Sequence record: ON568341.1
Direction: 5' to 3' (one strand)
DNA: 64,000 nt
Origin: Escherichia phage UE-S1
Both the position numbers and the translations under genes were made by a program. The notes below the pieces were generated by a model. It saw nothing but the letters and a program-made list of their open reading frames with translations. It was not told the origin of the DNA and did no database searches. Of the stretch, positions 9,653 to 63,781 are shown piece by piece. Every line of letters starts with the position of its first letter. Position 1 is the first letter of the stretch.

Positions 9653-9680
9653 TGCGTAAAAGGATTTAGTACTGATTCAG

Positions 9681-11143: not shown

Positions 11144-11232
11144 TGGAGGGATGCTGTACTTTATTTGAACTTTTATATATTCATGAACACATAGTTGCCC
11201 TCACAAATCTAATAAAGGATAAATGTAAATGA
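11143..11232 (+). pseudogene. truncated FamA paralog remnant (29 codons)
   Basis: encodes MEGCCTLFELLYIHEHIVALTNLIKDKCK; 3-prime part matches C-terminus of gene 10705-10932 (HEHIVALTNYIMDKC); central motif deleted; start/stop overlaps retained. Confidence 0.4.
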
Positions 11233-12577: not shown

Positions 12578-12581
12578 GCAG

Positions 12582-12839: not shown

Positions 12840-12850
12840 ATGTGAGGTTG

Positions 12851-13120
12851 ATGAACATGCAAATGATTAATTTAAGTAAAGATGAATATACCGAGCGTAT
12901 GACAAAAATTACGCACAAACGTAATACAATCTATCACAACCCAGAAATTCAACACAGTAAGAAAATGATTATGATGCGTGAGTTAAAGATGGGTGTATTC
13001 TTAGGAACAAACTATCAAGATACAGAAGTAAATCGCTTAATCGCGGAGTTACTACTGGAAATCAGAGGTAAGCTGTACTTTCATCAAATGACCCAACCAC
13101 TGAGGTGTACTAAGAAATGA
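12851..13120 (+). CDS. FamA small paralog
   Basis: motif LGTNYQDTEV; start chosen downstream of previous stop. Confidence 0.6.
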   Translation: MNMQMINLSKDEYTERMTKITHKRNTIYHNPEIQHSKKMIMMRELKMGVFLGTNYQDTEVNRLIAELLLEIRGKLYFHQMTQPLRCTKK

Positions 13121-13332
13121 TCAACATCACATTGCAAGAAAGATTCATCCGAATCAACTATGCAATTACCAAATTAGATGCTACTATAGGATTCCAAAGT
13201 CTACCGTTCCAAACAAGAATGATATTAGAGTGCGAAGCTAAATTGGGTGTACTGTTAGGAACGCAACACCAACAACGATATGTGGAAATCTGGATTGATC
13301 TTTTAACCCAAAATGTACATGAGAAAATGTAA
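13117..13332 (+). CDS. FamA small paralog
   Basis: motif LGTQHQQRYV. Confidence 0.65.
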   Translation: MINITLQERFIRINYAITKLDATIGFQSLPFQTRMILECEAKLGVLLGTQHQQRYVEIWIDLLTQNVHEKM

Positions 13333-13569
13333 ATGAAAAATGAAATGATATACTTAACGAATGAAGAGTTTCAAGAGAAGATGTTAAAAATCTATGATAA
13401 TACTCTTGAGTACGTTCCAAATCAATCAATATATGAAGTGTCTGCGAATGTATTATTTCAGAAGCTACCATACGTTCTTGGTACTGATAAACAAGAATTT
13501 ATGGTCAAAAATATGATTGAACATCTTATGATGAGTATTAAGGAAAAAGTAAATGCAAAAACAAAATAA
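13333..13569 (+). CDS. FamA small paralog
   Basis: motif LGTDKQEFMV. Confidence 0.6.
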   Translation: MKNEMIYLTNEEFQEKMLKIYDNTLEYVPNQSIYEVSANVLFQKLPYVLGTDKQEFMVKNMIEHLMMSIKEKVNAKTK

Positions 13570-13570
13570 A

Positions 13571-13816
13571 ATGATATACTTAACACCTGCTGAGTTAACA
13601 GAAAGACTAGTTAAATCCAGAAGATATACAAATCAACTTCCTCACAACCCAAATCAAAGCCCAGCGGAAAGGAGTGCAGAAGTTTTATTCCAATCACTAC
13701 CATACCTTCTTGGAACTAATAGACAAGAGTATCATATCGAACGTATAATTAAATATCTTAAAATTACTATTAAGGAAAAGATACATGCTCAAGAATTTAA
13801 AAATCCTAACAGCTAA
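13571..13816 (+). CDS. FamA small paralog
   Basis: motif LGTNRQEYHI. Confidence 0.6.
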   Translation: MIYLTPAELTERLVKSRRYTNQLPHNPNQSPAERSAEVLFQSLPYLLGTNRQEYHIERIIKYLKITIKEKIHAQEFKNPNS

Positions 13817-14027
13817 TGAATATCATAAGATTGTAATGACGACTAATAGTGCAATTTCTAAAAAATCAAATCCCAAATACATACTGGAACACACATTTGA
13901 AGAACGACAATTAACTTTAGTTGAAGCAAAACTTCTTGCACTCCTAGGAACAAACTATCAAGAAGAGTACGTTAGAAAACTAATATACCTTTTAACTAAA
14001 CATATTAGAAAAAAGAAAAACGCATGA
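13785..14027 (+). CDS. FamA small paralog
   Basis: motif LGTNYQEEYV. Confidence 0.6.
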   Translation: MLKNLKILTANEYHKIVMTTNSAISKKSNPKYILEHTFEERQLTLVEAKLLALLGTNYQEEYVRKLIYLLTKHIRKKKNA

Positions 14028-14254
14028 AACACTTGACAGATGATGAACATGGGCTTATAGTAATGGATGTAATCAACATCGAATACAAAAAGTTGATACG
14101 CTACCGTTGTTATGAAGATAAGCAACTCGTTCTAGAAGAACAGAAGTTGTTTCGACTCTTAAACACAAACTACCAAGCACAATACGAAGAATCGTATATG
14201 TACCTTTTGGCGAGGAAAGCAAAAAGAGATTATGAAAATTTTAAGCGAAGGTGA
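14024..14254 (+). CDS. FamA small paralog
   Basis: motif LNTNYQAQYE; N-terminus MKHLTDDEH shared with gene 11229. Confidence 0.65.
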   Translation: MKHLTDDEHGLIVMDVINIEYKKLIRYRCYEDKQLVLEEQKLFRLLNTNYQAQYEESYMYLLARKAKRDYENFKRR

Positions 14255-14447
14255 TGCAGTAATATTACTTATCGAGAATTCACGTAAATTCGTAAACATA
14301 ACACTGTCTGATATAGATGAAGATGACAAAGAAGTACTGAGAGCAGATTTAAGAGTACTGTTACATCTCGGAACAAACCTACAAGAAAGATATGTAGAGT
14401 TCTACATTGATGAACTTAAAGAATCAGTACTGAAAAGATGCAAATGA
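14232..14447 (+). CDS. FamA small paralog
   Basis: motif LGTNLQERYV. Confidence 0.6.
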   Translation: MKILSEGDAVILLIENSRKFVNITLSDIDEDDKEVLRADLRVLLHLGTNLQERYVEFYIDELKESVLKRCK

Positions 14448-14665
14448 AAATCATTACTGACGAAGAATACCTAACAATCATAAATGGACTGTTTTTGAAG
14501 CTATATGCTATTAACATATCAAACCTACCAGATATGGATAAAATTATTAAGAGAAATGAAATCTATGTTCTAGCTACCCTGGGAACTAACTATCAAGAAT
14601 ACGATATTAATGATTATATTAAGACACTTAAACGAGCGATTGAACTAAAATGCCAAAACCACTAG
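14438..14665 (+). CDS. FamA small paralog
   Basis: motif LGTNYQEYDI. Confidence 0.65.
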   Translation: MQMKIITDEEYLTIINGLFLKLYAINISNLPDMDKIIKRNEIYVLATLGTNYQEYDINDYIKTLKRAIELKCQNH

Positions 14666-14865
14666 GAACAGCAGAATACATTGAACTCATGGGATTACAC
14701 TTCTCATCCTTTCAGAAACTTATGCGAGAATCAAAGAATGATTTAGAATATACCATCAGAGGTTCAGATTTAAGAATGCTTCTCACCCTAGACACAGATT
14801 CCCAAGAGCGATTTGTCAATGAGCACATTAGAGCACTTTTAATGGAAATTCAAAGTAAACTATGA
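14650..14865 (+). CDS. FamA small paralog
   Basis: motif LDTDSQERFV. Confidence 0.6.
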   Translation: MPKPLGTAEYIELMGLHFSSFQKLMRESKNDLEYTIRGSDLRMLLTLDTDSQERFVNEHIRALLMEIQSKL

Positions 14866-15077
14866 AGGAAATATCAAACCAAGAGTACTTGGCACTATTC
14901 AGAAAGAATAATCATAAATTTATGGCACTTGATACAAGAACTGATATAGGGGAACTTGAAAAAAATCTTTTGCGTTCAGAGATGATAGTACTGACACTTT
15001 TAGGAACACAGCATCAAGAGAGAACTGTTAATTCATATATTGAGATTCTTACGAAGCTTATACAGGAAAAACTATGA
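14862..15077 (+). CDS. FamA small paralog
   Basis: motif LGTQHQERTV. Confidence 0.65.
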   Translation: MKEISNQEYLALFRKNNHKFMALDTRTDIGELEKNLLRSEMIVLTLLGTQHQERTVNSYIEILTKLIQEKL

Positions 15078-15295
15078 GAATCATAACACAAACAGACATA
15101 TTTAAGTTAGCAAGAGAACATACATCTGAAATTGATGCTATAGTATCAAAAAGTTACAATGACCCTTATACACAAGATGTACACTACAATGAATTATGGG
15201 TGTATATACTTTTAGGTACAAATTATCAAGAGCAAGCAGTACAGAAGTATTTGACAGCCTTAAGTACTGCTATTGCTAATGGAATAGGTGTTTAA
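15074..15295 (+). CDS. FamA small paralog
   Basis: motif LGTNYQEQAV. Confidence 0.65.
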   Translation: MRIITQTDIFKLAREHTSEIDAIVSKSYNDPYTQDVHYNELWVYILLGTNYQEQAVQKYLTALSTAIANGIGV

Positions 15296-15539
15296 AATGC
15301 TAGTACTGACAGAACTAGAAATGTATCATAGATTTAACAAGTACTATCATTTACTTAAGCCTATACAGAGGATTAAATGTCCATTTGAAGAGAAACAGGT
15401 ATTAATTTATGAGCATAAGTTATTTGTATCATTAGGTACGAATGAACAAGAGTATTATTTGAAGTTGTACTTAATTACTTTAATTGAATTGATTAATCAC
15501 AAAACTCAGAAAGCTAAGAAATCTAAAAATGAAAACTAA
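15288..15539 (+). CDS. FamA small paralog
   Basis: motif LGTNEQEYYL. Confidence 0.6.
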   Translation: MFKMLVLTELEMYHRFNKYYHLLKPIQRIKCPFEEKQVLIYEHKLFVSLGTNEQEYYLKLYLITLIELINHKTQKAKKSKNEN

Positions 15540-15867
15540 TATTCAACTCAAGGTATACATATCTTATGAATCTATATACATCAAATGCAGTCTATGTAAA
15601 GATGTAATGGATTATAAAGGTAAGCCATTCACAATTACTTACAGTCTAACAGGAGGTTTTTATATATCTTTTGTTGATTACGAAAATAAAATATACAAGC
15701 ACATTGATATTAAAGATTTAAGTACCTTGTCAGATGAGGAATACTTTCAAGAATCATTAGTATGGGATTTAGAGTTTCCTATGACATTAGTACACAAAAT
15801 GATAGTTCTAATGAAAGAAACTAAACCTGAGCCGAGTGGTTATGAAGAATTCATTATTGAGTATTAA
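15529..15867 (+). CDS. FamB paralog (FQ-S motif family)
   Basis: motif SDEEYFQESLVWD. Confidence 0.6.
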   Translation: MKTNIQLKVYISYESIYIKCSLCKDVMDYKGKPFTITYSLTGGFYISFVDYENKIYKHIDIKDLSTLSDEEYFQESLVWDLEFPMTLVHKMIVLMKETKPEPSGYEEFIIEY

Positions 15868-15879
15868 GAGTACTGATAT

Positions 15880-16095
15880 ATGAAAATATTATCATACAAA
15901 GATTATAGTAAGCTTATCAGTGCTTTGCAACCAGAAATTAGGAGAATTAATTCTCTTCCTGTATCTAATGCAGAATGTACAGTACTGAAAAAAGAGTTAA
16001 TATTAAAACGCACAGTAGGTACTAACTATCAGGATAATAGTGTTCGAGATTTAATTAGAGGGTTAATGAACACAATAAAGGCCAAGTGCCATTGA
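15880..16095 (+). CDS. FamA small paralog
   Basis: motif VGTNYQDNSV. Confidence 0.6.
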   Translation: MKILSYKDYSKLISALQPEIRRINSLPVSNAECTVLKKELILKRTVGTNYQDNSVRDLIRGLMNTIKAKCH

Positions 16096-16101
16096 CAGTA
16101 C

Positions 16102-16130
16102 TTGACGGAGCTTTTCATTACTGATATAGT
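16102..16130 (+). promoter_or_regulatory. sigma70-type promoter (TTGACG-17-TATAGT)
   Basis: TTGACG 16102-16107, TATAGT 16125-16130. Confidence 0.45.
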
Positions 16131-16159
16131 ACACAAACGTTAATCATAGGGTAGAAATT

Positions 16160-16405
16160 ATGTTAAAATTTTTAAATTTCCTTATCGTCTTGTGTATTGT
16201 TCTTGGGATTGCACCGTTTGTACTGGTGTATATGGATTCAGATGAAATGCAAAAGATGAATTGCACAAAGACGGGACAGAGTAGAGAAGAGACGATTCTT
16301 ATGCCTGTTACCGTTATTGTTAATAATATGCCCATTACAAACATGGTCCCTAACCTAACGACAACGTACCAGTACTCTTGTACAGACGGGGAGAGGTGGA
16401 GATGA
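16160..16405 (+). CDS. hypothetical small membrane protein
   Basis: N-terminal hydrophobic segment FLNFLIVLCIVLGIAPFVLVY. Confidence 0.5.
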   Translation: MLKFLNFLIVLCIVLGIAPFVLVYMDSDEMQKMNCTKTGQSREETILMPVTVIVNNMPITNMVPNLTTTYQYSCTDGERWR

Positions 16406-16722
16406 AATTTAATATAGCAAAAACATCGAATGTATGTATATTTGGTTATGCAGATGAGTTAGGTGATCTTGACATTCTTTTGTACAAAAAGGATGGTGTT
16501 ATGCATTTCAAGTACCAGGATGAAGAGGCAGACAATTATCCTTTACCTAATTTAGTACAAATGCAGGAAGAGGAATTATTCCAGTACAGCTTAGTATATG
16601 ACATTGATATTTGCACGATGCCAGTACTAATTAATATTCAAAAAGTGATGCTCGATGTGTTTGATAGGCTAATACAAGGCACACAAGGAAGAACCATATA
16701 TGTCAATGTACAAGACAATTAA
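16402..16722 (+). CDS. FamB paralog
   Basis: motif EEELFQYSLVYD; ATGA overlap. Confidence 0.6.
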   Translation: MKFNIAKTSNVCIFGYADELGDLDILLYKKDGVMHFKYQDEEADNYPLPNLVQMQEEELFQYSLVYDIDICTMPVLINIQKVMLDVFDRLIQGTQGRTIYVNVQDN

Positions 16723-16915
16723 TCAAGAATGGAAGACCCAAAAATACAGAGAATTCAATAGGAATTTTACAAAAGACGAATTGAATATAAAAACAACAGA
16801 ATTTGATATGTTTATTTTTCTCGGAACACGTTCACAGGAGCAATTTGTTCATTATTATATAAATTCGTTGCGAACGGAGATAGTATGCAAAACAAAGGGT
16901 ATTATAAAAAGGTAA
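16700..16915 (+). CDS. FamA-like paralog
   Basis: motif LGTRSQEQFV. Confidence 0.55.
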   Translation: MSMYKTINQEWKTQKYREFNRNFTKDELNIKTTEFDMFIFLGTRSQEQFVHYYINSLRTEIVCKTKGIIKR

Positions 16916-17151
16916 ACCAACATTTGTACGCTACAAAGTACAGGGATTTTTGTTTAAAGGGTGGTGATGAAGATTTTTCTTTGCGATTATCAGAATTTAA
17001 TCTGTTATTTTATCTTGGTACATCGGAACAAGAAGAAATGGCACAGAAATTTATCAAGCACCTTGTACAAAAAATTAATATGCAAATTTTGATGCTTAAG
17101 TTACAGAATGAGATAAATGAATATGAACCCAACAATAGTACTGGATCTTAA
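16885..17151 (+). CDS. FamA-like paralog
   Basis: motif LGTSEQEEMA. Confidence 0.55.
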   Translation: MQNKGYYKKVNQHLYATKYRDFCLKGGDEDFSLRLSEFNLLFYLGTSEQEEMAQKFIKHLVQKINMQILMLKLQNEINEYEPNNSTGS

Positions 17152-25582: not shown

Positions 25583-26022
25583 GTTTAGCAAGTGCACTTA
25601 AACTGGCACACAAAATACATCACTTCCACGATAACATAAAAAGTGGGTTTTATGGTGATAAAGTACATACATATGGAAATGAATATTATCTATCAGGTGT
25701 GACAAGATACTCTAATGATATTTTACTTATGGGATGTGATAAAGATAACTTCATGCAGTACACGTCATGTAGCTTATACACTAATTTTATTGTATATATG
25801 CCTGGTGCTAATATTACATTTGACACATCAAATACCTCGGTAGATTTTGGAATACTGGATGGGCCGTGGGGGACTGAAGAGTATTACTTCCAACAGAGTT
25901 TTATTTTCAGCCAAGAAATGCTTGATTCCTTGGTTGTTTTGTGGTACTTTAAGGAATTAGATATAGAACCCTTCTTTATGGACTGGGGGGCGTGTGAGTA
26001 TTTAGAGACAGAGGTATATTAA
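25579..26022 (+). CDS. FamB paralog, subfamily B2
   Basis: motif EEYYFQQSFIFS..LVVLWYFKE. Confidence 0.65.
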   Translation: MSLASALKLAHKIHHFHDNIKSGFYGDKVHTYGNEYYLSGVTRYSNDILLMGCDKDNFMQYTSCSLYTNFIVYMPGANITFDTSNTSVDFGILDGPWGTEEYYFQQSFIFSQEMLDSLVVLWYFKELDIEPFFMDWGACEYLETEVY

Positions 26023-26510
26023 TGTCATTGCAGAGTGCATTAAAAGAGGCAAAGAAGATTCATGAGTACATGATTATGGTACAGGAAGGTTTAGTGCCTG
26101 GTGTATACAAAACATCAGATACGGAATTCTTTGTTCTGGACAGGGATGATTATGATGAGTCCGAGGTACATGCTGAAACATTAGTTCTGCACACTGATAC
26201 TGGTGATAGTGACAACTGTGAATATCATATGTACAATCAATACATTAGTTATTGCCGTAATGAAGATATTACCATCTACAACACAGATATTGATGCTGAT
26301 GACACTATCATTCCATATTCAGTTCTGGAAGGTCCGTGGGATAGTGAAGAGTATTACTTTCAGAATAGTACTATCTACAGTGAAGAAGAACTGGATGTTA
26401 TTGTGATTATGTGGTACTTTAAAAGTATTGACTCCAGTAGTTTCTATTTTGATTATGAATATGTAGAGAATACAGTAGGAGAAGGTAATGTCATTACAAA
26501 GTGCTCTTGA
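26022..26510 (+). CDS. FamB paralog, subfamily B2
   Basis: motif EEYYFQNSTIYS; near-duplicate of 24637-25110. Confidence 0.65.
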   Translation: MSLQSALKEAKKIHEYMIMVQEGLVPGVYKTSDTEFFVLDRDDYDESEVHAETLVLHTDTGDSDNCEYHMYNQYISYCRNEDITIYNTDIDADDTIIPYSVLEGPWDSEEYYFQNSTIYSEEELDVIVIMWYFKSIDSSSFYFDYEYVENTVGEGNVITKCS

Positions 26511-28004: not shown

Positions 28005-28537
28005 TGAAAGTTAACATTAATGACTTTGATGCATTACAAGATTTATCAAAAAAGATTCGCACCATCGTACCAGTACTTAAAAAATGCAGTACTGGTTTAA
28101 TCGATCCTAGTACTGTTGTTAATGAGAAGTACAATTTTCATCGTGTATTACAGGGGACAGGTGCATTTCAGAAGTGTGAGGTACGTGAGAAACATGTAAT
28201 TGATACATCGTTGTTTTCTATTGGTGCACCTGTGTCAAACAATACTATTTTCCTGGATGCCTCTGGAAATATTCAACAATTAACATTTAAGAAAAGGAAA
28301 AAGAATAATAACATTGGTGTGTACGCGATGAAGTGGGGACAGCCAGCGTTGATGCGTGACATTCACATTCCTAAGTACAATTTCAATGCATTTGAAGAAC
28401 AGTGTTTTCAACTTTCTTGTACTGACCCTGACTATGCTATCATTCAATTCTATATGGAATTGCAGATTGCATTTAATAGTAATTTGTATATTAACTTATT
28501 GGCAATGAACATAGATGAAGTATTCAAAAACATTTAA
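28001..28537 (+). CDS. FamB-like paralog
   Basis: motif EEQCFQLSCTDP (divergent). Confidence 0.5.
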   Translation: MMKVNINDFDALQDLSKKIRTIVPVLKKCSTGLIDPSTVVNEKYNFHRVLQGTGAFQKCEVREKHVIDTSLFSIGAPVSNNTIFLDASGNIQQLTFKKRKKNNNIGVYAMKWGQPALMRDIHIPKYNFNAFEEQCFQLSCTDPDYAIIQFYMELQIAFNSNLYINLLAMNIDEVFKNI

Positions 28538-28733
28538 TCGAATTGAATACATGAGAACTGTGAGAGCGGTGTGGAATATATGGTACACTACTAAACCAAA
28601 AATGGATTACCATGATTTTAAGCTCTTGTTCTTTGTTGGCTCTAACAAACAGGATGTTGCAATGAAGGGTTATATTCAGCACTTACAGGAACTAATCCAG
28701 AAGAGAATATATGAAAATAATAGACCAAAATGA
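28515..28733 (+). CDS. FamA-like paralog inside FamB array
   Basis: motif VGSNKQDVAM; start uncertain. Confidence 0.5.
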   Translation: MKYSKTFNRIEYMRTVRAVWNIWYTTKPKMDYHDFKLLFFVGSNKQDVAMKGYIQHLQELIQKRIYENNRPK

Positions 28734-28902
28734 CATTGCTAAACTATTCAATATATATTCTACTAGAATGATGCAAACAGATTCATATAGTACTAAATTC
28801 AAAGAGTTGAAAGTACTGATGTACTTGGGAACACAATATCAGGAACAAGTTATTTTAGAATATATTAATTCATTAAAGAAGGATATCCGTGATGTACGAT
28901 GA
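28711..28902 (+). CDS. FamA paralog inside FamB array
   Basis: motif LGTQYQEQVI. Confidence 0.55.
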   Translation: MKIIDQNDIAKLFNIYSTRMMQTDSYSTKFKELKVLMYLGTQYQEQVILEYINSLKKDIRDVR

Positions 28903-49959: not shown

Positions 49960-50235
49960 ATGAATTATAAAGTTCTACAATATACATACAGTGTTTTGTT
50001 TGATTTACATCACAATGGAAGATATCTCAATACAATACGAGAAAACACATTTACTCATATGTTATGGATTGATTACTTAGAAACGATTCGTGCATATTTT
50101 GTTAATACTGAGATAATCATTCGTGGTAAAAAACAGAAGATTCAACATGTTAATAGTTATGGTGGTAAATTAACTCTAACATTTACCGATAATAATACTA
50201 ATGAAATGTGTTGTATCGAGTTGGTGAACATATGA
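49960..50235 (+). CDS. FamC small paralog
   Basis: N-terminus MNYKVLQYTYSVLFDL. Confidence 0.55.
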   Translation: MNYKVLQYTYSVLFDLHHNGRYLNTIRENTFTHMLWIDYLETIRAYFVNTEIIIRGKKQKIQHVNSYGGKLTLTFTDNNTNEMCCIELVNI

Positions 50236-50498
50236 ATTATAAAGATTTCCAATTAACATATAAGATTATTCGCAATCTAGCACACAACAATGATAGCCCT
50301 AGTCTAGAAGACACATGCACAGAAATGATCCATACGATTCGTGCAAAGATTGAAGAAAATTTCAGTACTGTTATTATTAATGATGACCATGCAGAATTTT
50401 CTGATATAATCATTAGACGTGATGGTAAAGTTGAGGTTCAGTACTACACTGATTTTGGATTTACAAGTGTACCGTTGGAGATATTCCCTTGGGATTAA
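50232..50498 (+). CDS. FamC small paralog
   Basis: N-terminus MNYKDFQLTYKII; ATGA overlap. Confidence 0.55.
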   Translation: MNYKDFQLTYKIIRNLAHNNDSPSLEDTCTEMIHTIRAKIEENFSTVIINDDHAEFSDIIIRRDGKVEVQYYTDFGFTSVPLEIFPWD

Positions 50499-50800
50499 AT
50501 TTAAATGATATACAATTCACTTATAAGGTACTATATGATTTGTATGATGCATACCTTGTTAGTAACAAAATAGGTTCACATAACCCAACCAAAGAACAAT
50601 CATTTATTGATTTATATATTGAGTACTTAGATTCTATTGAAAACTATCTCAAAAAGAATTACAGTACTTTTATCGATGGAAATGATACATTCGATTTCTA
50701 TGGTGTGCAATCATATGATGGTATAATCCATGTTCAATTTCAGGAAAGAACCGATAGGGAATTTATCGAAATTAAAGTTGTGAAGTTGGTGAATTTATAA
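50489..50800 (+). CDS. FamC small paralog
   Basis: N-terminus LNDIQFTYKVLYDL. Confidence 0.55.
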   Translation: MGLNLNDIQFTYKVLYDLYDAYLVSNKIGSHNPTKEQSFIDLYIEYLDSIENYLKKNYSTFIDGNDTFDFYGVQSYDGIIHVQFQERTDREFIEIKVVKLVNL

Positions 50801-50810
50801 GAGGTTACAT

Positions 50811-51122
50811 ATGTTATTAAATGATATACAATTTACATACAAATTTTTGTATATCCAATTCGCAACGGTTGATGCTGGTCAATATATCTACAGTGAAGTT
50901 TATCGTTCGATATGGATAAAGTTTTTGGATGAATTACATGATTATTACCATGATTTGTGTATAGTTCGTGATAATAAAATATACAAATTCCGCGATATTG
51001 TTAGCCATAGCGGTAAGCTAAGATTGGAATTAAGTACTGATAAGGATGTTGATTGGATTGGTGTAAATTTACTGGAGTTGGAGAATGAAAAACAACTTAA
51101 AGGAAATACAAGTATTTTATAA
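50811..51122 (+). CDS. FamC small paralog
   Basis: N-terminus MLLNDIQFTYKFLY. Confidence 0.55.
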   Translation: MLLNDIQFTYKFLYIQFATVDAGQYIYSEVYRSIWIKFLDELHDYYHDLCIVRDNKIYKFRDIVSHSGKLRLELSTDKDVDWIGVNLLELENEKQLKGNTSIL

Positions 51123-51369
51123 ATTCTTATACTTATCATATGTAAAAGATGAGTATTATGAAAGTGTGTATTATTTTTTATGGCAACATTACCGTACTAT
51201 AGTAAGAGATTTATATATAGGAAAATCTATCATATCCAATGGTGAAAAATGTACCTGTACGGATGTAGTTAGTTTTAATGGTTCTTTAACACTGTGTTTC
51301 AGATGCGATAATAATAGTGGGTCATTTTCATTAAACGTATATCAGTTAGAAGGAATAAATTTTGAATAA
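51085..51369 (+). CDS. FamC small paralog
   Basis: N-terminus LKEIQVFYKFLYL. Confidence 0.5.
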   Translation: MKNNLKEIQVFYKFLYLSYVKDEYYESVYYFLWQHYRTIVRDLYIGKSIISNGEKCTCTDVVSFNGSLTLCFRCDNNSGSFSLNVYQLEGINFE

Positions 51370-53622: not shown

Positions 53623-53630
53623 ATTCTTAG

Positions 53631-53654
53631 GCCAGCGTTTGCTGGTCTTTTTTC
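53631..53654 (+). terminator. rho-independent terminator
   Basis: CCAGC / GCTGG stem followed by TCTTTTTTC. Confidence 0.55.
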
Positions 53655-53666: not shown

Positions 53667-53969
53667 ATGTTCAGTATAGATTTAATTAACAGTACTATCA
53701 AAATGTTGGCTGATTTGGTGAGACAATCCAATGGAACTTTATATCCATCAATGTATAAAATGTTTGACCGATACATCAAGGATTGTAACATATCATTATA
53801 TGGACTTGCTGTTGATATAGACGATTACTATGGAATTAATACTTCATATGAAAGAGGAATTTTGATTGGTATTAATATAAAGATGGGATATTATCCTTAT
53901 TACTGTATAGGATTACCAGATAATACTTTTGTAGAATATCCAGCCAGTACTATTAAATTAAGAGGATAA
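53667..53969 (+). CDS. hypothetical protein (100 aa)
   Basis: ORF track. Confidence 0.5.
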   Translation: MFSIDLINSTIKMLADLVRQSNGTLYPSMYKMFDRYIKDCNISLYGLAVDIDDYYGINTSYERGILIGINIKMGYYPYYCIGLPDNTFVEYPASTIKLRG

Positions 53970-53976
53970 AACTAAA

Positions 53977-54555
53977 ATGAATGTATTAGAATTAAGTACT
54001 AAGCTGATTAGTATGCGTAATGAGTGGTACGATTGGTTTTATAATGGTACTGATATGGATTTTTCAAAATATCCATTTATGGAATCAGGATGTGATGCAA
54101 GATACCGCTGGTTGAGCAAAGATTGTTCTGGTTTACATATTCTAGTTGACGATAGTGGTCAGGGAATTATAAAAGATTTACTTCAAGTTGAACAACTCGT
54201 CCATGATAATTGGTGTGATAACGATCCATACCTTGGAAATATGATTTATGTAAGTGAAGATGATTGCATATTCGTTATCCAGCGTCATGGTAATTCTATG
54301 TTTTATGTAGCAGATAGCAGTACTCCAGAAGGTGCAGCAGCCGATGGACTTATGCCTAAGATTGATATATTGGAATTTGGATTACCTGAGCACTTCCAGA
54401 TTAGTACTTTATACGATATTCCACCACTTGAGTTCTTTGAAGAATTTAAATTGTACTACAATGATCTTCAAAAATTGAGTACTGATCGACGCATTGAAAT
54501 AACTGTTAAGTACATGGACGGAACGAAATTAACTGATACGGGGATAGAATTTTGA
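53977..54555 (+). CDS. FamB paralog outside main array
   Basis: motif PEHFQISTLYD; RBS AAGAGGA. Confidence 0.55.
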   Translation: MNVLELSTKLISMRNEWYDWFYNGTDMDFSKYPFMESGCDARYRWLSKDCSGLHILVDDSGQGIIKDLLQVEQLVHDNWCDNDPYLGNMIYVSEDDCIFVIQRHGNSMFYVADSSTPEGAAADGLMPKIDILEFGLPEHFQISTLYDIPPLEFFEEFKLYYNDLQKLSTDRRIEITVKYMDGTKLTDTGIEF

Positions 54556-55241
54556 TTAAAGATTTAGATAGAATTTTATATGTACTAAGGGGTGTAATTA
54601 CATTACATCCACAAATCAATCGAATTGAAAGTACATTTCAGTTGGAGTCAAGAGAAACTCCATATTCACATATATCAAATGTAGTTGGTTCACTCAGTAC
54701 TGAAGACTCGTCTTACGATATTTGTGTATGTGAAGTACAACCAAGTTCGGATCTTGGATTTGCTATTTTTGATAAAGATCAAAATCTCATTAGTATGTTT
54801 CAGTGCAATAATCCTTTTTGGAAAACATGCCTGTATCCAGAGTGGGCTATGCTTGATCCAACCAAGAGTACCATTAAAGTTTATGACTCTAAAAATGATG
54901 AAGTCGTTATTGATTTGGATGAGTCAATGTCAGAGGAAGAACACTTTCAGCTAATGATGATGCGTGCTATGCCGGAATACAATGCAATGATTAACACTGT
55001 GCAATACATTAAGGATACCATGCCAGCGTTGCGTACACATGAGTTTTGTCATCCGGTATTGTATGAACATCTAGATTTAGACTTCAGTACTATTAAATTT
55101 AAAGATAGTGTTAAAAAATATATTCAAGAGAATGTTAAATTTGATTTTATTAGTACTATGAACAATAATCCAAAAACTAATTTTAGGCATCAGTACAATG
55201 AATCTTTGTCTAATGGACGTGATACCAGTTGGTGGAAATAA
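54552..55241 (+). CDS. FamB paralog outside main array
   Basis: motif EEEHFQLMMMRA; probable TTG start overlapping upstream stop. Confidence 0.5.
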   Translation: MIKDLDRILYVLRGVITLHPQINRIESTFQLESRETPYSHISNVVGSLSTEDSSYDICVCEVQPSSDLGFAIFDKDQNLISMFQCNNPFWKTCLYPEWAMLDPTKSTIKVYDSKNDEVVIDLDESMSEEEHFQLMMMRAMPEYNAMINTVQYIKDTMPALRTHEFCHPVLYEHLDLDFSTIKFKDSVKKYIQENVKFDFISTMNNNPKTNFRHQYNESLSNGRDTSWWK

Positions 55242-55242
55242 T

Positions 55243-55506
55243 ATGAATATTCAAGATAGATTACAATTACTGTACACACTTGAACAGGCTGCTTATGATC
55301 TTGTTCGAAAAATCTCAGATGAACTACCTAAAGGAACTAAAGTTCGTGTACGTGAGATGAATTATTTTTCTGGAGTAATTGAAGAACAAGTACTAACAGT
55401 GAATAAAGTAACATACTATGAATCTGAGTTGTCTATTCAGTGTGAATCTGATGATGGATTAATATCATATTATGGAACTGATGTAGATATAGAGGTAATA
55501 AAATGA
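55243..55506 (+). CDS. hypothetical small protein
   Basis: ATG 55243 just after upstream stop. Confidence 0.45.
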   Translation: MNIQDRLQLLYTLEQAAYDLVRKISDELPKGTKVRVREMNYFSGVIEEQVLTVNKVTYYESELSIQCESDDGLISYYGTDVDIEVIK

Positions 55507-56645
55507 CCCTTTTGCAAATATATGAAGATTTAATGCACTTATGTAATACAAACGATGCATTCTTTTATGTGGATCATAAAAGTCCTGCTGGTGGCACGTA
55601 TCGTGTATTCAGTTATCGCCTAGCATCATACAATGATTTCATGCAACCAAATGCACTAGAAACCCGTGGCTCTATGTGGGAAATTGATGAAGAAGGTAAT
55701 ATGATTCGTTGTGCTGCTCGTACTATGAAAAAGTTCTTCAATGCTTACGAGAATCCTGCTACAATGTTCCCTGCTAACACCACATGCGATGACATTGCGG
55801 TAGTGATGCCTAAATTAGATGGTTCAGTGATCAGTACTTACCGTGATAATGATGGTGAGATTCGTTGTAAATCACATACTGCATTGTATTCTGACCATGC
55901 GATTAACAGTACTCGACTTATTAACGAAAACCAGAATTTGTATCAGTACATCGACGAAGCTGAACGTTTAGGTTACACAGTTAATATGGAGTATACAAGC
56001 CCAGAGTACCGAATTGTATTACCATATCAGGTAGAACAACTGTTTGTATTGAACGTTCGTCATCGTGTGAGTGGTGAGTTGCTATGTGGTAAAGCACTAC
56101 GTGATAAGTTTCCATGTCTTGCACAGTACAGCACTAACATGACAGGCCAAGATATTCATCACACTTTTCCTGTACGAAATACATTCCGTGAAAGTGTTGA
56201 TGAAGTTCATAAAATGCTTGATATTGAGGGGTTTGTGTGCATCTTAAATAATGGGACAATGTGTAAAATAAAGACTGACTGGTACAGTTCATTACATCTT
56301 ACAAAAGATAGTATTATTATTGATTCTCATTTATATGAAGCTGTATTAAATGGTTCAAGTGATGATTTAAAACAATTGTTCAGTACTGATGAATATGCTA
56401 TGCAAAAGATATTAAGAATGGAACAGTTGGTTTTTTCGTGCTATAATGCATTACAAGATGAAGTAGAAAGCTTCGTCAATGAACACAAGCACTTAGAGCG
56501 AAAGGAATTCGCATTGAAGGTTCAGTCGTGTTTATCTAGTGAACTGAATCGTCAGGGCTTGGCATTTGCAATGTATAATAATAAGAAAGTTGATTATAAA
56601 GATACTCTTATCAAATACATGAAAATTATACTAAAAGATTTTTAG
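55503..56645 (+). CDS. rnlA: RNA ligase 1 (T4 RnlA-like ATP-dependent RNA ligase)
   Basis: collinear with T4 Rnl1 as I recall it: FFYVDHKSPAGGTYRVFSY, active-site KLDGS (KxDG), KIKTDWYSSLHLTK, GSSDDLKQLFSTDEY; 380 aa. Confidence 0.9.
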   Translation: MTLLQIYEDLMHLCNTNDAFFYVDHKSPAGGTYRVFSYRLASYNDFMQPNALETRGSMWEIDEEGNMIRCAARTMKKFFNAYENPATMFPANTTCDDIAVVMPKLDGSVISTYRDNDGEIRCKSHTALYSDHAINSTRLINENQNLYQYIDEAERLGYTVNMEYTSPEYRIVLPYQVEQLFVLNVRHRVSGELLCGKALRDKFPCLAQYSTNMTGQDIHHTFPVRNTFRESVDEVHKMLDIEGFVCILNNGTMCKIKTDWYSSLHLTKDSIIIDSHLYEAVLNGSSDDLKQLFSTDEYAMQKILRMEQLVFSCYNALQDEVESFVNEHKHLERKEFALKVQSCLSSELNRQGLAFAMYNNKKVDYKDTLIKYMKIILKDF

Positions 56646-56675
56646 TACTAACTAGCCTAAGCACAAGGAGAAGTG

Positions 56676-56930
56676 ATGGCTAAACCTAAGTATAAAAATG
56701 ACGGTTCCCTTTCTCCAACTGAGTTCAGGAAAATACAACAAGAAATCGATGAATTACAGCACAAACGCTCAATGAAAGGTGTGAAGATAAGTAAGAAGAG
56801 AATCGAGAATACTTTCGGATGTAGTAGTACTGAATATAAGAAGAAAAGGAAACCGAAGGGTGTTAAGCCGAGAATACATGATGTAACTCGCTATACATCA
56901 AAACGTGAAAATAAATTTGATCCACTATAA
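56676..56930 (+). CDS. hypothetical highly basic protein
   Basis: ATG 56676 after AAGGAGAA RBS; Lys/Arg-rich. Confidence 0.5.
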   Translation: MAKPKYKNDGSLSPTEFRKIQQEIDELQHKRSMKGVKISKKRIENTFGCSSTEYKKKRKPKGVKPRIHDVTRYTSKRENKFDPL

Positions 56931-56939
56931 GGAGTTCAT

Positions 56940-57170
56940 ATGAAAGTTGAAGTTCAGCATAGTATTGTTCAAGATATGTCTGTAGTTAAATTTCTTTCAT
57001 TAAAAGATTACTTTAGATGTATCAAGTTCCTAGAAGAATCTCATTTAAAATGGACTCCATTAAAGTACAGTTCATCCAAAGACACTGCTAGTATTCGTTG
57101 TGATGAAGCTGTACTCGTAAAAATCTCTAAAAGATTTGGGATAGGTAAAGTGAATGAGCACAGTAAATGA
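56940..57170 (+). CDS. hypothetical protein (76 aa)
   Basis: RBS AAGGAG. Confidence 0.5.
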   Translation: MKVEVQHSIVQDMSVVKFLSLKDYFRCIKFLEESHLKWTPLKYSSSKDTASIRCDEAVLVKISKRFGIGKVNEHSK

Positions 57171-57408
57171 ACTAAAATACTACAACAAAATTGCGGATAC
57201 GTTTATTACTCATTTATATGAAGAATTCAGTAGTATCCGCAAGGAATATACAGGTAAATGTATTTTATATAGTTCTTATCTTAGTGGAAGAATTGAACGT
57301 GCTTACATTACTAAAGTGAAGTTTTCTGATGATTATCAATTACTATTTGAATTGGATGATTGTTTAGTCATTGAAGCTGATTTAATAGTAGATGTGCTGA
57401 ACAATTGA
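57154..57408 (+). CDS. hypothetical small protein
   Basis: ORF track. Confidence 0.45.
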   Translation: MSTVNELKYYNKIADTFITHLYEEFSSIRKEYTGKCILYSSYLSGRIERAYITKVKFSDDYQLLFELDDCLVIEADLIVDVLNN

Positions 57409-57414
57409 GGACAT

Positions 57415-57729
57415 ATGAATAAAGAACTTGCATATAAGGGTATCGAAAAGCTAAAGTTCGTTGAAAAGGAACTAATAGAATCAGTTGAAACAATGGTTGA
57501 AGATTACGTTTTTGATTTTAAGAAAACATTAATTGGATGTAAAGTCAAATGCTGGGATCATACCATTAGAGAATGGTTCAGTGCTATAATTCTTGATGTT
57601 AAAGTATCTCGAACTGGTATTGGTAACTTAGTAAATGGTGAATGCTTTGTATACACTGAATACAATAACGGTACAAGACACCTTTCAAAAGGATGGCACA
57701 ATCTCGAAGATGTAGAATTCATTGAGTAA
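57415..57729 (+). CDS. hypothetical small protein
   Basis: RBS GAGGA. Confidence 0.5.
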   Translation: MNKELAYKGIEKLKFVEKELIESVETMVEDYVFDFKKTLIGCKVKCWDHTIREWFSAIILDVKVSRTGIGNLVNGECFVYTEYNNGTRHLSKGWHNLEDVEFIE

Positions 57730-57741
57730 CAAGGAGTAATA

Positions 57742-58674
57742 ATGCCAACTATCACCTTAACAATTGGGTTGCCTGGGTGTGGTAAAACTACATGGGCAGT
57801 GCAAGAGATTAAAAACGCCAAATCTAAGACTATCAACATCAACCGTGATGATATTCGTGAATCTATGGCGGGGTCACATGATGCTTACAAATTCAACGAT
57901 GCTAATGAGCAGTACGTAACTACTTTACAGTTCAGTGCAGCAAATTTAGCAGCAGAGAATGGTTGGAACATCATCATATCCGATACGAACCTTAAACAAC
58001 ATTTCCGTGATCTCTGGAAAGTATGGGCTAAAGATAATGATTATGATTACAAAGAAAAGAACTTCTATGATGATTTTGTACCTAATGAAGACCGTGGTGC
58101 AGATGTTCATGAATTCTTTAAGATTAAAGAGTTCGTAAAACTTTGTAAGAAATATAACCGCCAGCGTGAGCGTTCAGTACAAGATAATATCATTGATACG
58201 ATGGCAGATACTTACTATTATAGTAAAGCAATGCACATTGGTTACTATGGTAATTCAAGAGAAGCCTCTGTTATCGTTGATATCGACGGAACTCTTGCTC
58301 ATAAATGGGGTCGTAATCCTTACGATGAAAGTACTGTACTACAAGATACACCAGATGAAGAAGTTATTTTGTCTATTATCGCTGAAGCAGTTTTCCATAA
58401 ACGTAAGATTATTGTAATGAGTGGGCGTACTGAAGGGTGTCGTGCAGACACAGAACAGTGGCTTAAGAATTGGGGTGTTCCTTACGATGCATTGTTTATG
58501 CGAGGCATCGATGATAAACGACCCGATGATGTGGTAAAATATGAGTTGTATATGAATAACGTCGTGCATCATTACGATGTTAAAAAAGTATACGATGACA
58601 GATCACAAGTCGTATTCATGTGGCGTAAACTACTTGGATTAAAAGTGATGCAAGTTGCAGAAGGAAATTTCTGA
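57742..58674 (+). CDS. pseT: polynucleotide 5-prime kinase / 3-prime phosphatase (T4 Pnk-like)
   Basis: N-terminal P-loop GLPGCGKTT, NINRDD, ISDTNL; C-terminal DxDGT phosphatase motif VIVDIDGTLA; collinear with T4 Pnk as I recall it; RBS AAGGAG. Confidence 0.85.
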   Translation: MPTITLTIGLPGCGKTTWAVQEIKNAKSKTININRDDIRESMAGSHDAYKFNDANEQYVTTLQFSAANLAAENGWNIIISDTNLKQHFRDLWKVWAKDNDYDYKEKNFYDDFVPNEDRGADVHEFFKIKEFVKLCKKYNRQRERSVQDNIIDTMADTYYYSKAMHIGYYGNSREASVIVDIDGTLAHKWGRNPYDESTVLQDTPDEEVILSIIAEAVFHKRKIIVMSGRTEGCRADTEQWLKNWGVPYDALFMRGIDDKRPDDVVKYELYMNNVVHHYDVKKVYDDRSQVVFMWRKLLGLKVMQVAEGNF

Positions 58675-58677: not shown

Positions 58678-58706
58678 AAAAGGGATCAATGTATGATCCC
58701 TTTTTC
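58678..58706 (+). terminator. rho-independent terminator
   Basis: AAAGGGATCA / TGATCCCTTT stem plus T-run. Confidence 0.65.
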
Positions 58707-59411: not shown

Positions 59412-59706
59412 ATATTATCATAATTTATTCGATTACATAAAACTAATAGATGATCTTTCTTTTGAATTTCTCAGTACTGAAAAAGTTGATGAACCTCTCT
59501 ATTATGATTGTATTAGTTCACTGTGTTTAGATGAAAAAGAGATATTAGCAAATAACTTACCATCCACGGTCTGTGTAATCAATGGTTCCAAGGCTGTGGT
59601 GTCTGAGGTTAATTTTCATAAATCACTTAATACAATTGTTTACAAGTTCGATAACACTTGGTTTAATCACGTAACTAGTAATATTAAATCTGTGAGATTT
59701 TTATGA
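59404..59706 (+). CDS. hypothetical protein
   Basis: ATG 59404 overlapping upstream stop. Confidence 0.45.
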   Translation: MNEYYHNLFDYIKLIDDLSFEFLSTEKVDEPLYYDCISSLCLDEKEILANNLPSTVCVINGSKAVVSEVNFHKSLNTIVYKFDNTWFNHVTSNIKSVRFL

Positions 59707-59999
59707 ATATAAAAAAATTATTTGAACAAGTAAATTTATTGTACTTGTGTTCAGACGGCTCAGATAAGGAATATAGTGAAGTTTATTTAGAACTATTTAG
59801 AACTGAAATACATCTAATTCGAAGATACCTAATTGATAACAAAACTGAAGTAAAAGTTAGATACCATAATGGTACTTTAAAGAATGGTATAATTATTGGA
59901 TTGATAGTTACAAGAATGTCCAGTAATATTAAAGTTGCAGTAAGATTAATGACTGATGATGGTGTCTACACAATAGAAGCTAATGAGATTATATATTAA
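59703..59999 (+). CDS. hypothetical small protein
   Basis: ATGA overlap. Confidence 0.5.
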   Translation: MNIKKLFEQVNLLYLCSDGSDKEYSEVYLELFRTEIHLIRRYLIDNKTEVKVRYHNGTLKNGIIIGLIVTRMSSNIKVAVRLMTDDGVYTIEANEIIY

Positions 60000-61861: not shown

Positions 61862-62118
61862 TGTTCAAAACCGACTTATCACATTTTCGATATCTTAGGT
61901 CTTTGGCTGATGATTTTATAAATGATCTTAAGCCAAAATATATTGGTCAAGAAGTACGATTAATAAACTCCAGAGGGTATGGAAAGTATATTATAACGGA
62001 TATGTATATTAGTGCTGGTGAGTGGTGTTTTAAAATTAACACTTATCTTAAAGATGGTTCTTTTGCTGGAACACAAGTTACTAAACATACTAATATTATA
62101 TGGTTGGAGCAACAATGA
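61861..62118 (+). CDS. hypothetical small protein
   Basis: ORF track. Confidence 0.5.
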   Translation: MFKTDLSHFRYLRSLADDFINDLKPKYIGQEVRLINSRGYGKYIITDMYISAGEWCFKINTYLKDGSFAGTQVTKHTNIIWLEQQ

Positions 62119-62858
62119 AACACTTTTTAGAAGTAACCGTGCCTGATGATAAAGATTTATATATTGTAGGTGATTTGCATGGTAATGGTAAACTATGGGA
62201 TGCTACAGTAAAAGAATTTGGTATTACACACAATGATTATGTTTTCAGTGTAGGTGATGTTATCGACCGTGGAGAACAAAATTCAAAGCTCCTTTTTGAA
62301 TTTTTGTTCGGTGAAAATCGTTACATGATTGCTGGTAATCATGAGATGATGTGTGTTGATTCTGAAACACTTCGAGATTGGTATCATTGTTGGATAAGTA
62401 ATGGTGGTGATAAATTCCTTGATGAAGTTGGAGGGACAGGTATTCAATTCTTTCGTCAGTACTTGAAAGATTTACCTATGATTATCCAAATCAACCATAG
62501 AGGCTTGAAGATCGGGTTAGTTCATGCTGGAGTTCCTTTGGAATATACAACATGGGAACGATTTGTTAATGGGACAAAATCACTTAGTGCTGATATAGTT
62601 GATAAGTGCTTGTGGGATAGGAAAACATTCGATTATTGTAGGACAAATAATACTTATTATGCACCTAAGTTAGATGGAGTGCATTGTGTCTTTAGTGGAC
62701 ATACAGCAGTTACTGAACCACTCATTTATGGCAATCGCATTTGGATTGATAGTCAGTTCTTGACGGGTGACTTAACTCTCGCTACTCCACAAAGTGGTGG
62801 GATGAGATACTTACGTAAAGAAAAAGATGAGTACTCATTCAGTCGTTTCAAAAGGTAA
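62115..62858 (+). CDS. Ser/Thr protein phosphatase (lambda-PPase-like metallophosphoesterase)
   Basis: GDLHG, GDVIDRG, GNHE motifs in canonical order; ATGA overlap. Confidence 0.8.
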   Translation: MKHFLEVTVPDDKDLYIVGDLHGNGKLWDATVKEFGITHNDYVFSVGDVIDRGEQNSKLLFEFLFGENRYMIAGNHEMMCVDSETLRDWYHCWISNGGDKFLDEVGGTGIQFFRQYLKDLPMIIQINHRGLKIGLVHAGVPLEYTTWERFVNGTKSLSADIVDKCLWDRKTFDYCRTNNTYYAPKLDGVHCVFSGHTAVTEPLIYGNRIWIDSQFLTGDLTLATPQSGGMRYLRKEKDEYSFSRFKR

Positions 62859-63143: not shown

Positions 63144-63371
63144 ATGAAAGTAATTCAAGTTATGGTAGAAAAATACCAAACTGAAGATGGTCGTATTTTT
63201 GATTCAGCTAAACAAGCTGAACATCATGAACGTATTATTTCGGGTACACGTAAAGTGTGTCCTACATGTAATGGAACACAACAAGTGCCGTCAGAAGATT
63301 ACCGCAGCTTTTATGCTTGTCCATACTGTGATGGGAAAGGCTATGTAGAAAAACAAGAGGTATGGAAATGA
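63144..63371 (+). CDS. putative zinc-ribbon protein (75 aa)
   Basis: CPTCNG ... CPYCDG; RBS AAGGAAA. Confidence 0.5.
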   Translation: MKVIQVMVEKYQTEDGRIFDSAKQAEHHERIISGTRKVCPTCNGTQQVPSEDYRSFYACPYCDGKGYVEKQEVWK

Positions 63372-63781
63372 AATTGTATTGCTTAACTAATATGTACTGT
63401 CAAGGTGTCCAAGCTGGTATTCAAGCATTTCATGCTGGTGTTAAACTAATCAAAGAATATGAAGGTACTGCTTTCAGTACTATGATTGATGAATGGTATA
63501 ATGAGCACGAAACTATTGTAGTACTAAATGCGGGTGGACATGATAAATTAAATTCTTATTATAAAGACCTTAACAAACAGGGAACAGTTCCGTTTGCCAA
63601 ATTCAATGAAGCTGGATTGAATGATGCTATTACATGTATCGCAGTACTGTGTACATCTGAAATGATTGAAGACATGGCTGTTATGCGTATGAATCTTCCT
63701 GCTGGTGATCAGCTAATGCAAGTGAAATATGGTGCATTGTTTGACACACTTAAAGCAATCAGTACGATGAGGACAATTTGA
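63362..63781 (+). CDS. hypothetical protein (139 aa)
   Basis: ORF track. Confidence 0.5.
   Translation: MEMKLYCLTNMYCQGVQAGIQAFHAGVKLIKEYEGTAFSTMIDEWYNEHETIVVLNAGGHDKLNSYYKDLNKQGTVPFAKFNEAGLNDAITCIAVLCTSEMIEDMAVMRMNLPAGDQLMQVKYGALFDTLKAISTMRTI

What the first reader, a model, noticed from the sequence alone, without database searches (positions are those of the whole stretch)
55503..58674. T4-like RNA-repair pair (RnlA and Pnk) separated by unrelated small genes
RNA ligase 1 and polynucleotide kinase/phosphatase are the classic pair that reseals tRNA cut by host anticodon nucleases. Here they are unambiguous by motifs but separated by four small genes of unknown function, and surrounded by FamB and other small paralogs. 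Their presence implies the host range includes strains with tRNA-cleaving defences; the intervening small genes are candidates for cofactors or further counter-defence.
Basis: partly seen in the sequence, partly recalled or inferred. Interest (0 to 1): 0.55.

Follow-up and report, generated by a model that had tools for sequence, protein, structure and literature searches.

The report
Known T4-type RNA repair gene pair
This jumbo E. coli phage carries the well-known T4-type RNA ligase and polynucleotide kinase pair that can mend cut tRNA; close relatives already carry the same annotation, so it is ordinary, apart from two small uncharacterised proteins that always sit between the two enzymes in this phage group.

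Summary
ORF 55503-56645 is a T4 RnlA-family RNA ligase 1, and ORF 57742-58674 is a bifunctional T4-type polynucleotide 5'-kinase/3'-phosphatase. The adenylylated lysine (K104, KLDGS), the P-loop (K15) and the DxDGT motif (D180/D182) are all intact. Four small same-strand genes lie between them.

The window is an Asteriusvirus-like jumbo coliphage (about 94% nt identity to E9.1, G17 and 121Q). In those relatives the two genes are already annotated as RNA ligase and PNK. The 2013 RaK2 paper already called the pair tRNA repair proteins.

The separation is not unusual. T4 has rnlA, then four genes (alc, pseT.3, pseT.2, pseT.1), then pseT, in the same order and direction.

What I add:
- Two of the four intervening genes are conserved between rnlA and pnk in every RaK2-like genus examined: X (56676-56930, a basic helical protein) and Y (56940-57170, a small α/β sandwich).
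- Y is 69% identical across genera, as conserved as the enzymes. In several genera its gene overlaps the pnk start.
- The other two genes occupy a hypervariable slot holding 0 to 3 genes.
- X and Y have no detectable homologues outside the clade and no assignable function.

The anti-anticodon-nuclease role is inferred from T4, not shown.

The parts
53629..53648 (+). Terminator-like hairpin plus T-run that ends the preceding transcription unit
   Evidence: 8-bp stem, 5 GC pairs, TTTTTT tail; sequence seen. The promoter for the next unit was not identified.
55198..55506 (+). Small gene (about 95-102 aa, PHROG 28139) whose stop overlaps the rnlA start (ATGA). An ortholog sits directly upstream of rnlA in Klebsiella phage KP13-7.
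   Evidence: (E=1.5e-5 to KP13-7 3399-3671).
55503..56645 (+). rnlA: T4-family RNA ligase 1. It has the adenylyltransferase domain with K104 in KLDGS, plus the C-terminal tRNA-specificity domain.
56676..56930 (+). X: an 84-aa basic protein (pI 10.2, 24 K+R), predicted to be one long helix (residues 14-45) plus a short one. It lies immediately downstream of rnlA in all RaK2-like genera examined. Function unknown.
   Evidence: (PHROG 15306). A strong SD (AAGGAG) precedes the ATG at 56676.
56940..57170 (+). Y: a 76-aa protein with a ββαββα two-layer sandwich (AF2 pLDDT 85). It is 61-92% identical across the clade and has 21 invariant residues. Function unknown. Its gene overlaps the pnk start in Eneladusvirus, Mimasvirus and EJP2.
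   Evidence: (PHROG 14730).
57154..57408 (+). Variable-slot gene 1 (84 aa, acidic, no PHROG). Present in the 121Q/G17-type relatives, absent from the PBECO4 type.
57415..57729 (+). Variable-slot gene 2 (104 aa, PHROG 31355). It has a divergent counterpart in PBECO4 (protein E=1e-19, no nucleotide similarity). Its fEgEco12 counterpart is labelled 'transcriptional regulator' by that record, which I did not verify.
57742..58674 (+). pnk (pseT-like): an N-terminal P-loop 5'-kinase (GLPGCGKT) and a C-terminal HAD 3'-phosphatase (DIDGT).
58678..58704 (+). Intrinsic-terminator-like hairpin (11-bp stem, T-rich tail) 4 nt after the pnk stop. The same site is annotated as a terminator in phage G17.

Best explanation
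This is the T4-type 'heal and seal' RNA repair pair of a RaK2-like (Asteriusvirus) jumbo coliphage. It is carried in one tightly packed early-type transcription unit that ends at a terminator right after pnk.

Proposed mechanism, by homology with T4:
1. [quoted passage not shown]
2. The C-terminal HAD phosphatase of Pnk (nucleophile D180 in DIDGT) removes the 3' phosphate.
3. The N-terminal P-loop kinase of Pnk (K15, D36, R39) phosphorylates the 5'-OH.
4. RnlA, adenylylated on K104, seals the nick. Its C-terminal domain directs it to tRNA anticodon loops.

Shown here: homology, domain architecture, intact catalytic residues, co-linearity and conservation. Inferred: enzyme activity, tRNA as the substrate, and the counter-defence role.

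Of the four genes in between, X and Y are clade-wide conserved core genes of unknown function. The other two are passengers in a hypervariable cassette slot.
For: - Family assignment is strong for both enzymes.
- All catalytic residues checked are retained, with two exceptions listed under evidence against.
- The Rnl1-specific C-domain is present: PF20819, E=1e-16. [quoted passage not shown]
- The T4 mechanism is described in PMC11494293, in PMC2610378 (abstract) and in the T4 RefSeq notes.
- The order rnlA...pnk and the direction are the same as in T4 and in all RaK2-like genera examined.
- RnlA is 64% and Pnk 65% identical between Asteriusvirus and Alcyoneusvirus, which indicates purifying selection.
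- Genes are packed with gaps of 27 nt or less, and terminator-like hairpins bracket 53667-58674. G17 annotates the same terminator after pnk.
Against: - There is no functional data for this phage or any RaK2-like phage.
- T4 Rnl1 K119, which I recall from memory as essential, aligns to H125 here. That position is His or Asn across the clade, and K123 two residues upstream is invariant.
- T4 Pnk R126 aligns to Q141. The clade-invariant R142 lies one residue away, next to a roughly 20-aa clade-specific insertion (residues about 109-130), so its equivalence is plausible but unproven.
- No host anticodon nuclease is known for these phages, and the sequence cannot show that tRNA is the substrate.
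- T4 gp63 also has a non-enzymatic tail-fibre attachment activity, so retention of rnlA need not reflect RNA repair alone.
Confidence: 0.72

Rival explanations
1. Four-gene module: X and Y are dedicated accessory subunits of the repair pathway. For example, the basic helical X could bind tRNA or RNA, and Y could be an adaptor or regulator of Pnk. The functional unit in RaK2-like phages would then be rnlA-X-Y-pnk rather than the T4 two-enzyme pair.
For: - X and Y lie between rnlA and pnk in Asteriusvirus, Alcyoneusvirus, Eneladusvirus, Mimasvirus, EJP2 and others, while neighbouring genes turn over.
- Y is 69% identical across genera, at least as conserved as the enzymes. It has 21 invariant, mostly polar residues.
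- The Y gene overlaps the pnk start by 13 nt in four annotated genomes, consistent with translational coupling.
- X has pI 10.2.
Against: - All carriers belong to one syntenic clade, so conserved position may only reflect common descent.
- There are no homologues outside the clade to give an independent co-occurrence test.
- Insertions of 1 to 3 unrelated genes between Y and pnk are tolerated.
- The X model is a low-pTM helix.
- T4 Pnk and Rnl1 need no cofactor (established biochemistry).
Confidence: 0.18
2. The pair mainly serves functions other than counter-defence. RnlA could act as a tail-fibre attachment chaperone, as T4 gp63 does. Pnk could act as a general nucleic-acid end-healing enzyme for phage DNA or RNA metabolism.
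For: - The T4 RefSeq and PHROG annotation is 'RNA ligase and tail fiber protein attachment catalyst'.
- The surrounding region also holds other nucleic-acid and translation housekeeping genes: a metallophosphoesterase at 62100-62858, PTH2 at 63362-63781, and a DNA ligase just beyond in G17.
Against: - All ligase catalytic residues are kept, which a purely structural role would not require.
- Co-conservation and co-linearity of the ligase with a kinase-phosphatase is the signature of RNA heal-and-seal pathways (PMC7824862).
- The tRNA-specificity C-domain is retained.
Confidence: 0.08

Closest known systems
Bacteriophage T4 rnlA (gene 63) and pseT tRNA repair pair
   Same: - Same two enzyme families and same domain architectures.
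- Catalytic residues are conserved.
- Same gene order and direction (rnlA upstream, pnk downstream), with four small genes in between.
   Different: - Only 36% (Rnl1) and 39% (Pnk) identity to T4.
- The Pnk here has a roughly 20-aa insertion in the kinase domain, and the R126-equivalent is shifted.
- Rnl1 has His at the T4 K119 position.
- The intervening genes are unrelated to alc and pseT.1-3.
RNA ligase and PNK genes of RaK2-like jumbo phages (RaK2 gp464/gp470; G17_00487/00482; 121Q 438/443; PBECO4 gp129/gp125; GAP32_080/084)
   Same: These are orthologs. The window region is 93-95% identical in nucleotides to the Asteriusvirus members, with the same layout, and both genes are already annotated as RNA ligase A and polynucleotide kinase.
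   Different: - This copy is about 5-6% diverged from any record in the phage collection.
- It carries the two-gene (121Q/G17-type) version of the variable slot rather than the one-gene PBECO4 version.
Bacterial Pnkp/Hen1 and Capnocytophaga Pnkp1-Rnl-Pnkp2 RNA repair systems
   Same: The heal-and-seal logic is the same. Pnkp1 (PDB 4xrp) is the second-best solved relative of the Pnk here, E=3e-30.
   Different: Those systems use other ligase clades or extra components (Hen1 methyltransferase, a second Pnkp). No Hen1 or second Pnkp appears in this unit.

Membership tests
Rnl1 (T4 RnlA) RNA ligase family | Motif I KxDG with the lysine that is adenylylated (T4 K99) | tested here: met
   K104 in KLDGS aligns to T4 K99 in KEDGS.
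Rnl1 (T4 RnlA) RNA ligase family | Nucleotidyltransferase motifs III, IV and V (T4 E159, E227/G228, K240/K242) | tested here: met
   E163, E242/G243 and K255/K257.
Rnl1 (T4 RnlA) RNA ligase family | Rnl1-type N-terminal subdomain residues that contact ATP (T4 R54, K75, and the adjacent Phe) | tested here: met
   R55, K77 and F78/F79. Their roles are described in PMC6379707.
Rnl1 (T4 RnlA) RNA ligase family | T4 K119 (recalled from memory as essential in alanine scanning) | tested here: not met
   It aligns to H125. The position is His or Asn throughout the RaK2-like clade, and K123 (T4 K117) is invariant. I could not check the residue list in the paper library, so this carries little weight.
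Rnl1 (T4 RnlA) RNA ligase family | C-terminal all-helical domain that confers tRNA anticodon-loop specificity | tested here: met
   Pfam PF20819 T4_Rnl1_C, E=1.2e-16, residues 268-379.
Rnl1 (T4 RnlA) RNA ligase family | Passes the curated equivalog threshold | tested here: met
   NCBIfam TIGR02308, 294.3 bits against a cutoff of 242.25.
Rnl1 (T4 RnlA) RNA ligase family | ATP-dependent sealing of 3'-OH/5'-PO4 RNA ends | not testable with these tools
   Needs biochemistry.
T4-type bifunctional polynucleotide kinase/phosphatase (Pnk/PseT) | N-terminal P-loop GxxxxGK[ST], plus the general-base Asp and Arg (T4 K15, S16, D35, R38) | tested here: met
   GLPGCGKT with K15 and T16; D36 and R39.
T4-type bifunctional polynucleotide kinase/phosphatase (Pnk/PseT) | Kinase lid arginine (T4 R126) | tested here: inconclusive
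   It aligns to Q141. The clade-invariant R142 is adjacent, and the alignment there follows a roughly 20-aa insertion.
T4-type bifunctional polynucleotide kinase/phosphatase (Pnk/PseT) | C-terminal HAD phosphatase with DxDGT, plus T4 R176, R213, D254 and D278 | tested here: met
   D180-I-D182-G-T; R191, R229, D262 and D286. Pfam HAD_PNKP, E=1.2e-43.
T4-type bifunctional polynucleotide kinase/phosphatase (Pnk/PseT) | 5'-kinase and 3'-phosphatase activities | not testable with these tools
   Needs biochemistry.
Phage tRNA-repair counter-defence (T4 versus PrrC paradigm) | Healing and sealing enzymes encoded together and expressed together | tested here: inconclusive
   Same strand, tight packing, and terminator-like hairpins only before 53667 and after 58674. 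There is no transcript data, and the promoter scan was no better than shuffled sequence.
Phage tRNA-repair counter-defence (T4 versus PrrC paradigm) | Required for growth only on hosts carrying an anticodon nuclease | not testable with these tools
   Needs genetics.

The most novel reading that the evidence does not exclude
In RaK2-like jumbo phages the RNA repair unit is a conserved four-gene module, rnlA-X-Y-pnk. The clade-restricted basic helical protein X and the ββαββα protein Y would be new accessory factors. They might recruit tRNA, regulate Pnk, or neutralise a repair-defying nuclease. A hypervariable cassette slot has opened between Y and pnk in some genera.
Probability: 0.18. Interest if true: 0.5.

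Novelty: already known. Interest (0 to 1): 0.2.

Why it matters
The pair adds no new biology. It confirms that Asteriusvirus-type jumbo coliphages carry intact T4-style tRNA repair enzymes, as their GenBank records and the RaK2 paper already state.

It has practical relevance for phage-therapy candidates of this group, because they may tolerate tRNA-cleaving abortive-infection systems.

The one open thread is the two clade-wide conserved, uncharacterised small proteins wedged between the enzymes. If they belong to the pathway, they would be the first accessory factors of a phage Rnl1/Pnk system.

Tried and rejected
1. Homology of the intervening genes to T4 alc or pseT.1-3: phmmer with --max gave nothing above 8 bits. 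Rejected.
2. The flanking small genes as one paralog family ('FamB'): BLASTP clustering, iterative HMMs and phmmer did not link them. A profile of the 104-aa gene hit the KP13-7 gene upstream of rnlA at E=1.4e-5 in a tiny database, but hhalign gave 3% probability. Left as unproven.
3. Remote homologues of Y: a profile search of 1.8 billion representatives found only 3 true clusters plus spurious hits to long proteins. A PDB profile search gave nothing below E=0.5.
5. X as a helix-turn-helix protein (my reading of the sequence): AF2 instead predicts one long helix with pTM 0.44. There were no Pfam or PDB hits. Not supported.
6. PADLOC (defence-system models): no hits for any of the six proteins.
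7. Paper search for the Rnl1 K119 requirement: no paper in the library holds it.
8. The fEgEco12 paper does not discuss these genes.
Full report
**What is there.** Between 55503 and 58674 the + strand carries six tightly packed ORFs (gaps from -17 to +27 nt):
- 55503-56645, 380 aa
- 56673/56676-56930, 85/84 aa
- 56940-57170, 76 aa
- 57154-57408, 84 aa
- 57415-57729, 104 aa
- 57742-58674, 310 aa

The coordinates and the count of four intervening genes in the finding are correct.

**Identity of the two enzymes.**

The 380-aa protein is an RNA ligase 1.
- It matches Pfam RNA_lig_T4_1 (E=9e-15) and T4_Rnl1_C (E=1e-16).
- It matches PHROG 562, 'RNA ligase and tail fiber protein attachment catalyst' (E=5e-108).
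- It passes the NCBIfam equivalog TIGR02308, 'T4 RnlA family RNA ligase' (294 bits, cutoff 242).
- It matches the T4 Rnl1 crystal structures (2c5u, E=9e-57).

The 310-aa protein is a polynucleotide kinase/phosphatase.
- It matches Pfam AAA_33 and HAD_PNKP (E=1e-43).
- It matches PHROG 505, 'polynucleotide kinase' (E=1e-93).
- It matches T4 Pnk (1ltq, E=2e-37).

Alignment to the T4 proteins (36% and 39% identity) shows these residues retained:
- Ligase: K104 in KLDGS (T4 K99), D106, G107, E163, E242/G243, K255/K257, and the N-subdomain R55, K77 and F78/79.
- Kinase: GLPGCGKT (K15, T16), D36 and R39.
- Phosphatase: DIDGT (D180, D182), R191, R229, D262 and D286.

Two departures from T4 stand out.
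- T4 K119, which I recall from memory as essential and could not verify in the paper library, aligns to His125. This position is His or Asn throughout the clade.
- T4 Pnk R126 aligns to Q141, next to a clade-invariant R142. This follows a clade-specific insertion of roughly 20 aa.

Neither departure argues seriously against activity.

**Where the window comes from, and whether this is known.** The region is 93-95% identical in nucleotides to Asteriusvirus jumbo coliphages (E9.1, CRJP21, G17, Sharanji, slurp01, 121Q), and it matches 35 phage records in all.
- In G17 the orthologs are annotated 'putative RNA ligase A' and 'putative polynucleotide kinase'. The same four hypothetical genes lie between them, and a terminator is annotated right after pnk.
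- PBECO4 and 121Q carry the same annotations.
- RNA repair systems of jumbo phages have been surveyed (PMC7824862).
- T4-type Pnk homologs occur in at least 2,376 phage records.

The pair is therefore already known.

**Is the separation unusual?** No. In T4 itself the order is rnlA-alc-pseT.3-pseT.2-pseT.1-pseT, all on one strand. rnlA is upstream and four genes lie in between. The layout here mirrors that, but the intervening genes are unrelated in sequence to the T4 ones.

**Anatomy of the interval.** I compared PBECO4, Klebsiella phage KP13-7 (Alcyoneusvirus), Yersinia fHe-Yen9-04 and Serratia BF (Eneladusvirus), Cronobacter GAP32 (Mimasvirus) and Escherichia EJP2. Clustering of the small proteins gives a clear picture.

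Two genes are always present between rnlA and pnk.
- **X (56676-56930).** It is basic (pI 10.2, 24 K+R) and sits immediately after rnlA. It is 44% identical to its shorter 57-aa KP13-7 ortholog and 58-61% identical to the 78-79-aa orthologs in the other genera. I found 61 homologs, all of them small proteins (57-97 aa); where the source is named or the contig is long, it is a RaK2-like jumbo phage or a ~350-kb contig. AlphaFold predicts one long helix (residues 14-45) plus a short one (pLDDT 78, pTM 0.44).

In Eneladusvirus, Mimasvirus and EJP2 the Y gene overlaps the pnk start by 13 nt, and another small gene lies between X and Y.

In Asteriusvirus and Alcyoneusvirus a variable slot has opened between Y and pnk.
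- It holds two genes here (57154-57408 and 57415-57729), one in PBECO4 and three in KP13-7.
- Window 57158-57741 has no nucleotide similarity to PBECO4, while the flanks are 92-96% identical.

So two of the four intervening genes are variable passengers, and two are conserved core genes.

**Transcription.** On the + strand, the terminator-like hairpins followed by a strong T-run in 52-60.5 kb lie at 53629-53648 and at 58678-58704, which is 4 nt after the pnk stop. G17 annotates a terminator at the latter site. X, Y and pnk have AAGGAG Shine-Dalgarno sequences. The sigma-70 promoter scan found no more sites than in shuffled sequence, so the promoter is not identified. Co-transcription of 53667-58674 is inferred, not shown.

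**Mechanism.** By homology with T4 (PMC11494293; PMC2610378; PMC6379707; T4 RefSeq notes), the steps are:
1. The Pnk phosphatase heals the 2',3'-cyclic or 3'-phosphate end.
2. The Pnk kinase phosphorylates the 5'-OH left by an anticodon nuclease.
3. RnlA seals the nick through a lysyl-AMP intermediate, guided to tRNA by its C-domain.

Homology, architecture, residues and conservation are shown. Activity, substrate and counter-defence role are inferred. I put 0.72 on this.

The rivals are:
- X and Y are accessory factors, making a four-gene module (0.18).
- The pair mainly has non-defence roles, such as gp63-like tail-fibre attachment and general end-healing (0.08).

**Verdict.** The finding is ordinary and already annotated. 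The modest residue of interest is the pair of clade-restricted conserved small proteins X and Y, and the hypervariable slot next to pnk.

Noticed in passing
window 57158-57741: Hypervariable cassette slot between gene Y and pnk. This stretch has no blastn similarity to PBECO4, whose slot is 311 bp with one gene, while the flanks are 92-96% identical. The slot holds 0 to 3 genes in other genera.
   Followed up: yes
window 9872-17151 and 28515-28902: A tandem array of about 30 paralogous small genes (64-96 aa), linked by BLASTP at E<1e-3.
   Followed up: no
window 15529-37276: A second paralog family of 18 genes, about 100-240 aa, interleaved over roughly 22 kb. A third family of five tandem genes of about 91-103 aa lies at 49960-51369.
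   Followed up: no
window 26070-26154: ARAGORN calls a tRNA-Cys with the unusual anticodon ACA, inside ORF 26022-26510. Rfam finds no tRNA or any other RNA family at gathering threshold anywhere in the window. It is probably a false positive.
   Followed up: partly
window 62100-62858 and 63362-63781: A calcineurin-like metallophosphoesterase (Pfam Metallophos, E=3e-11; labelled a PrpA/B-like Ser/Thr phosphatase in relatives) and a PTH2-type peptidyl-tRNA hydrolase (E=4e-6) lie 3.5-5 kb downstream of pnk. In G17 a DNA ligase follows. This may be a loose cluster of nucleic-acid and translation rescue genes.
   Followed up: partly
window 57742-58674, Pnk residues about 109-130: A clade-specific insertion of about 20 aa in the kinase domain relative to T4 Pnk. 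It is present in all RaK2-like orthologs and is 3 residues shorter in Eneladusvirus, Mimasvirus and EJP2.
   Followed up: partly
L010 (fEgEco12) 2715-3026 and 4991-5219; window counterparts 57415-57729 and 59703-59999: The fEgEco12 record labels the gene upstream of pnk 'transcriptional regulator', and labels the ortholog of window 59703-59999 (98 aa) 'SAM-dependent 2'-O-MTase domain-containing protein'. Pfam gives no support for either label, and the paper does not discuss them.
   Followed up: partly
window 1-10000: G+C is higher here (0.36-0.41) than in the rest of the window (about 0.30-0.34).
   Followed up: no
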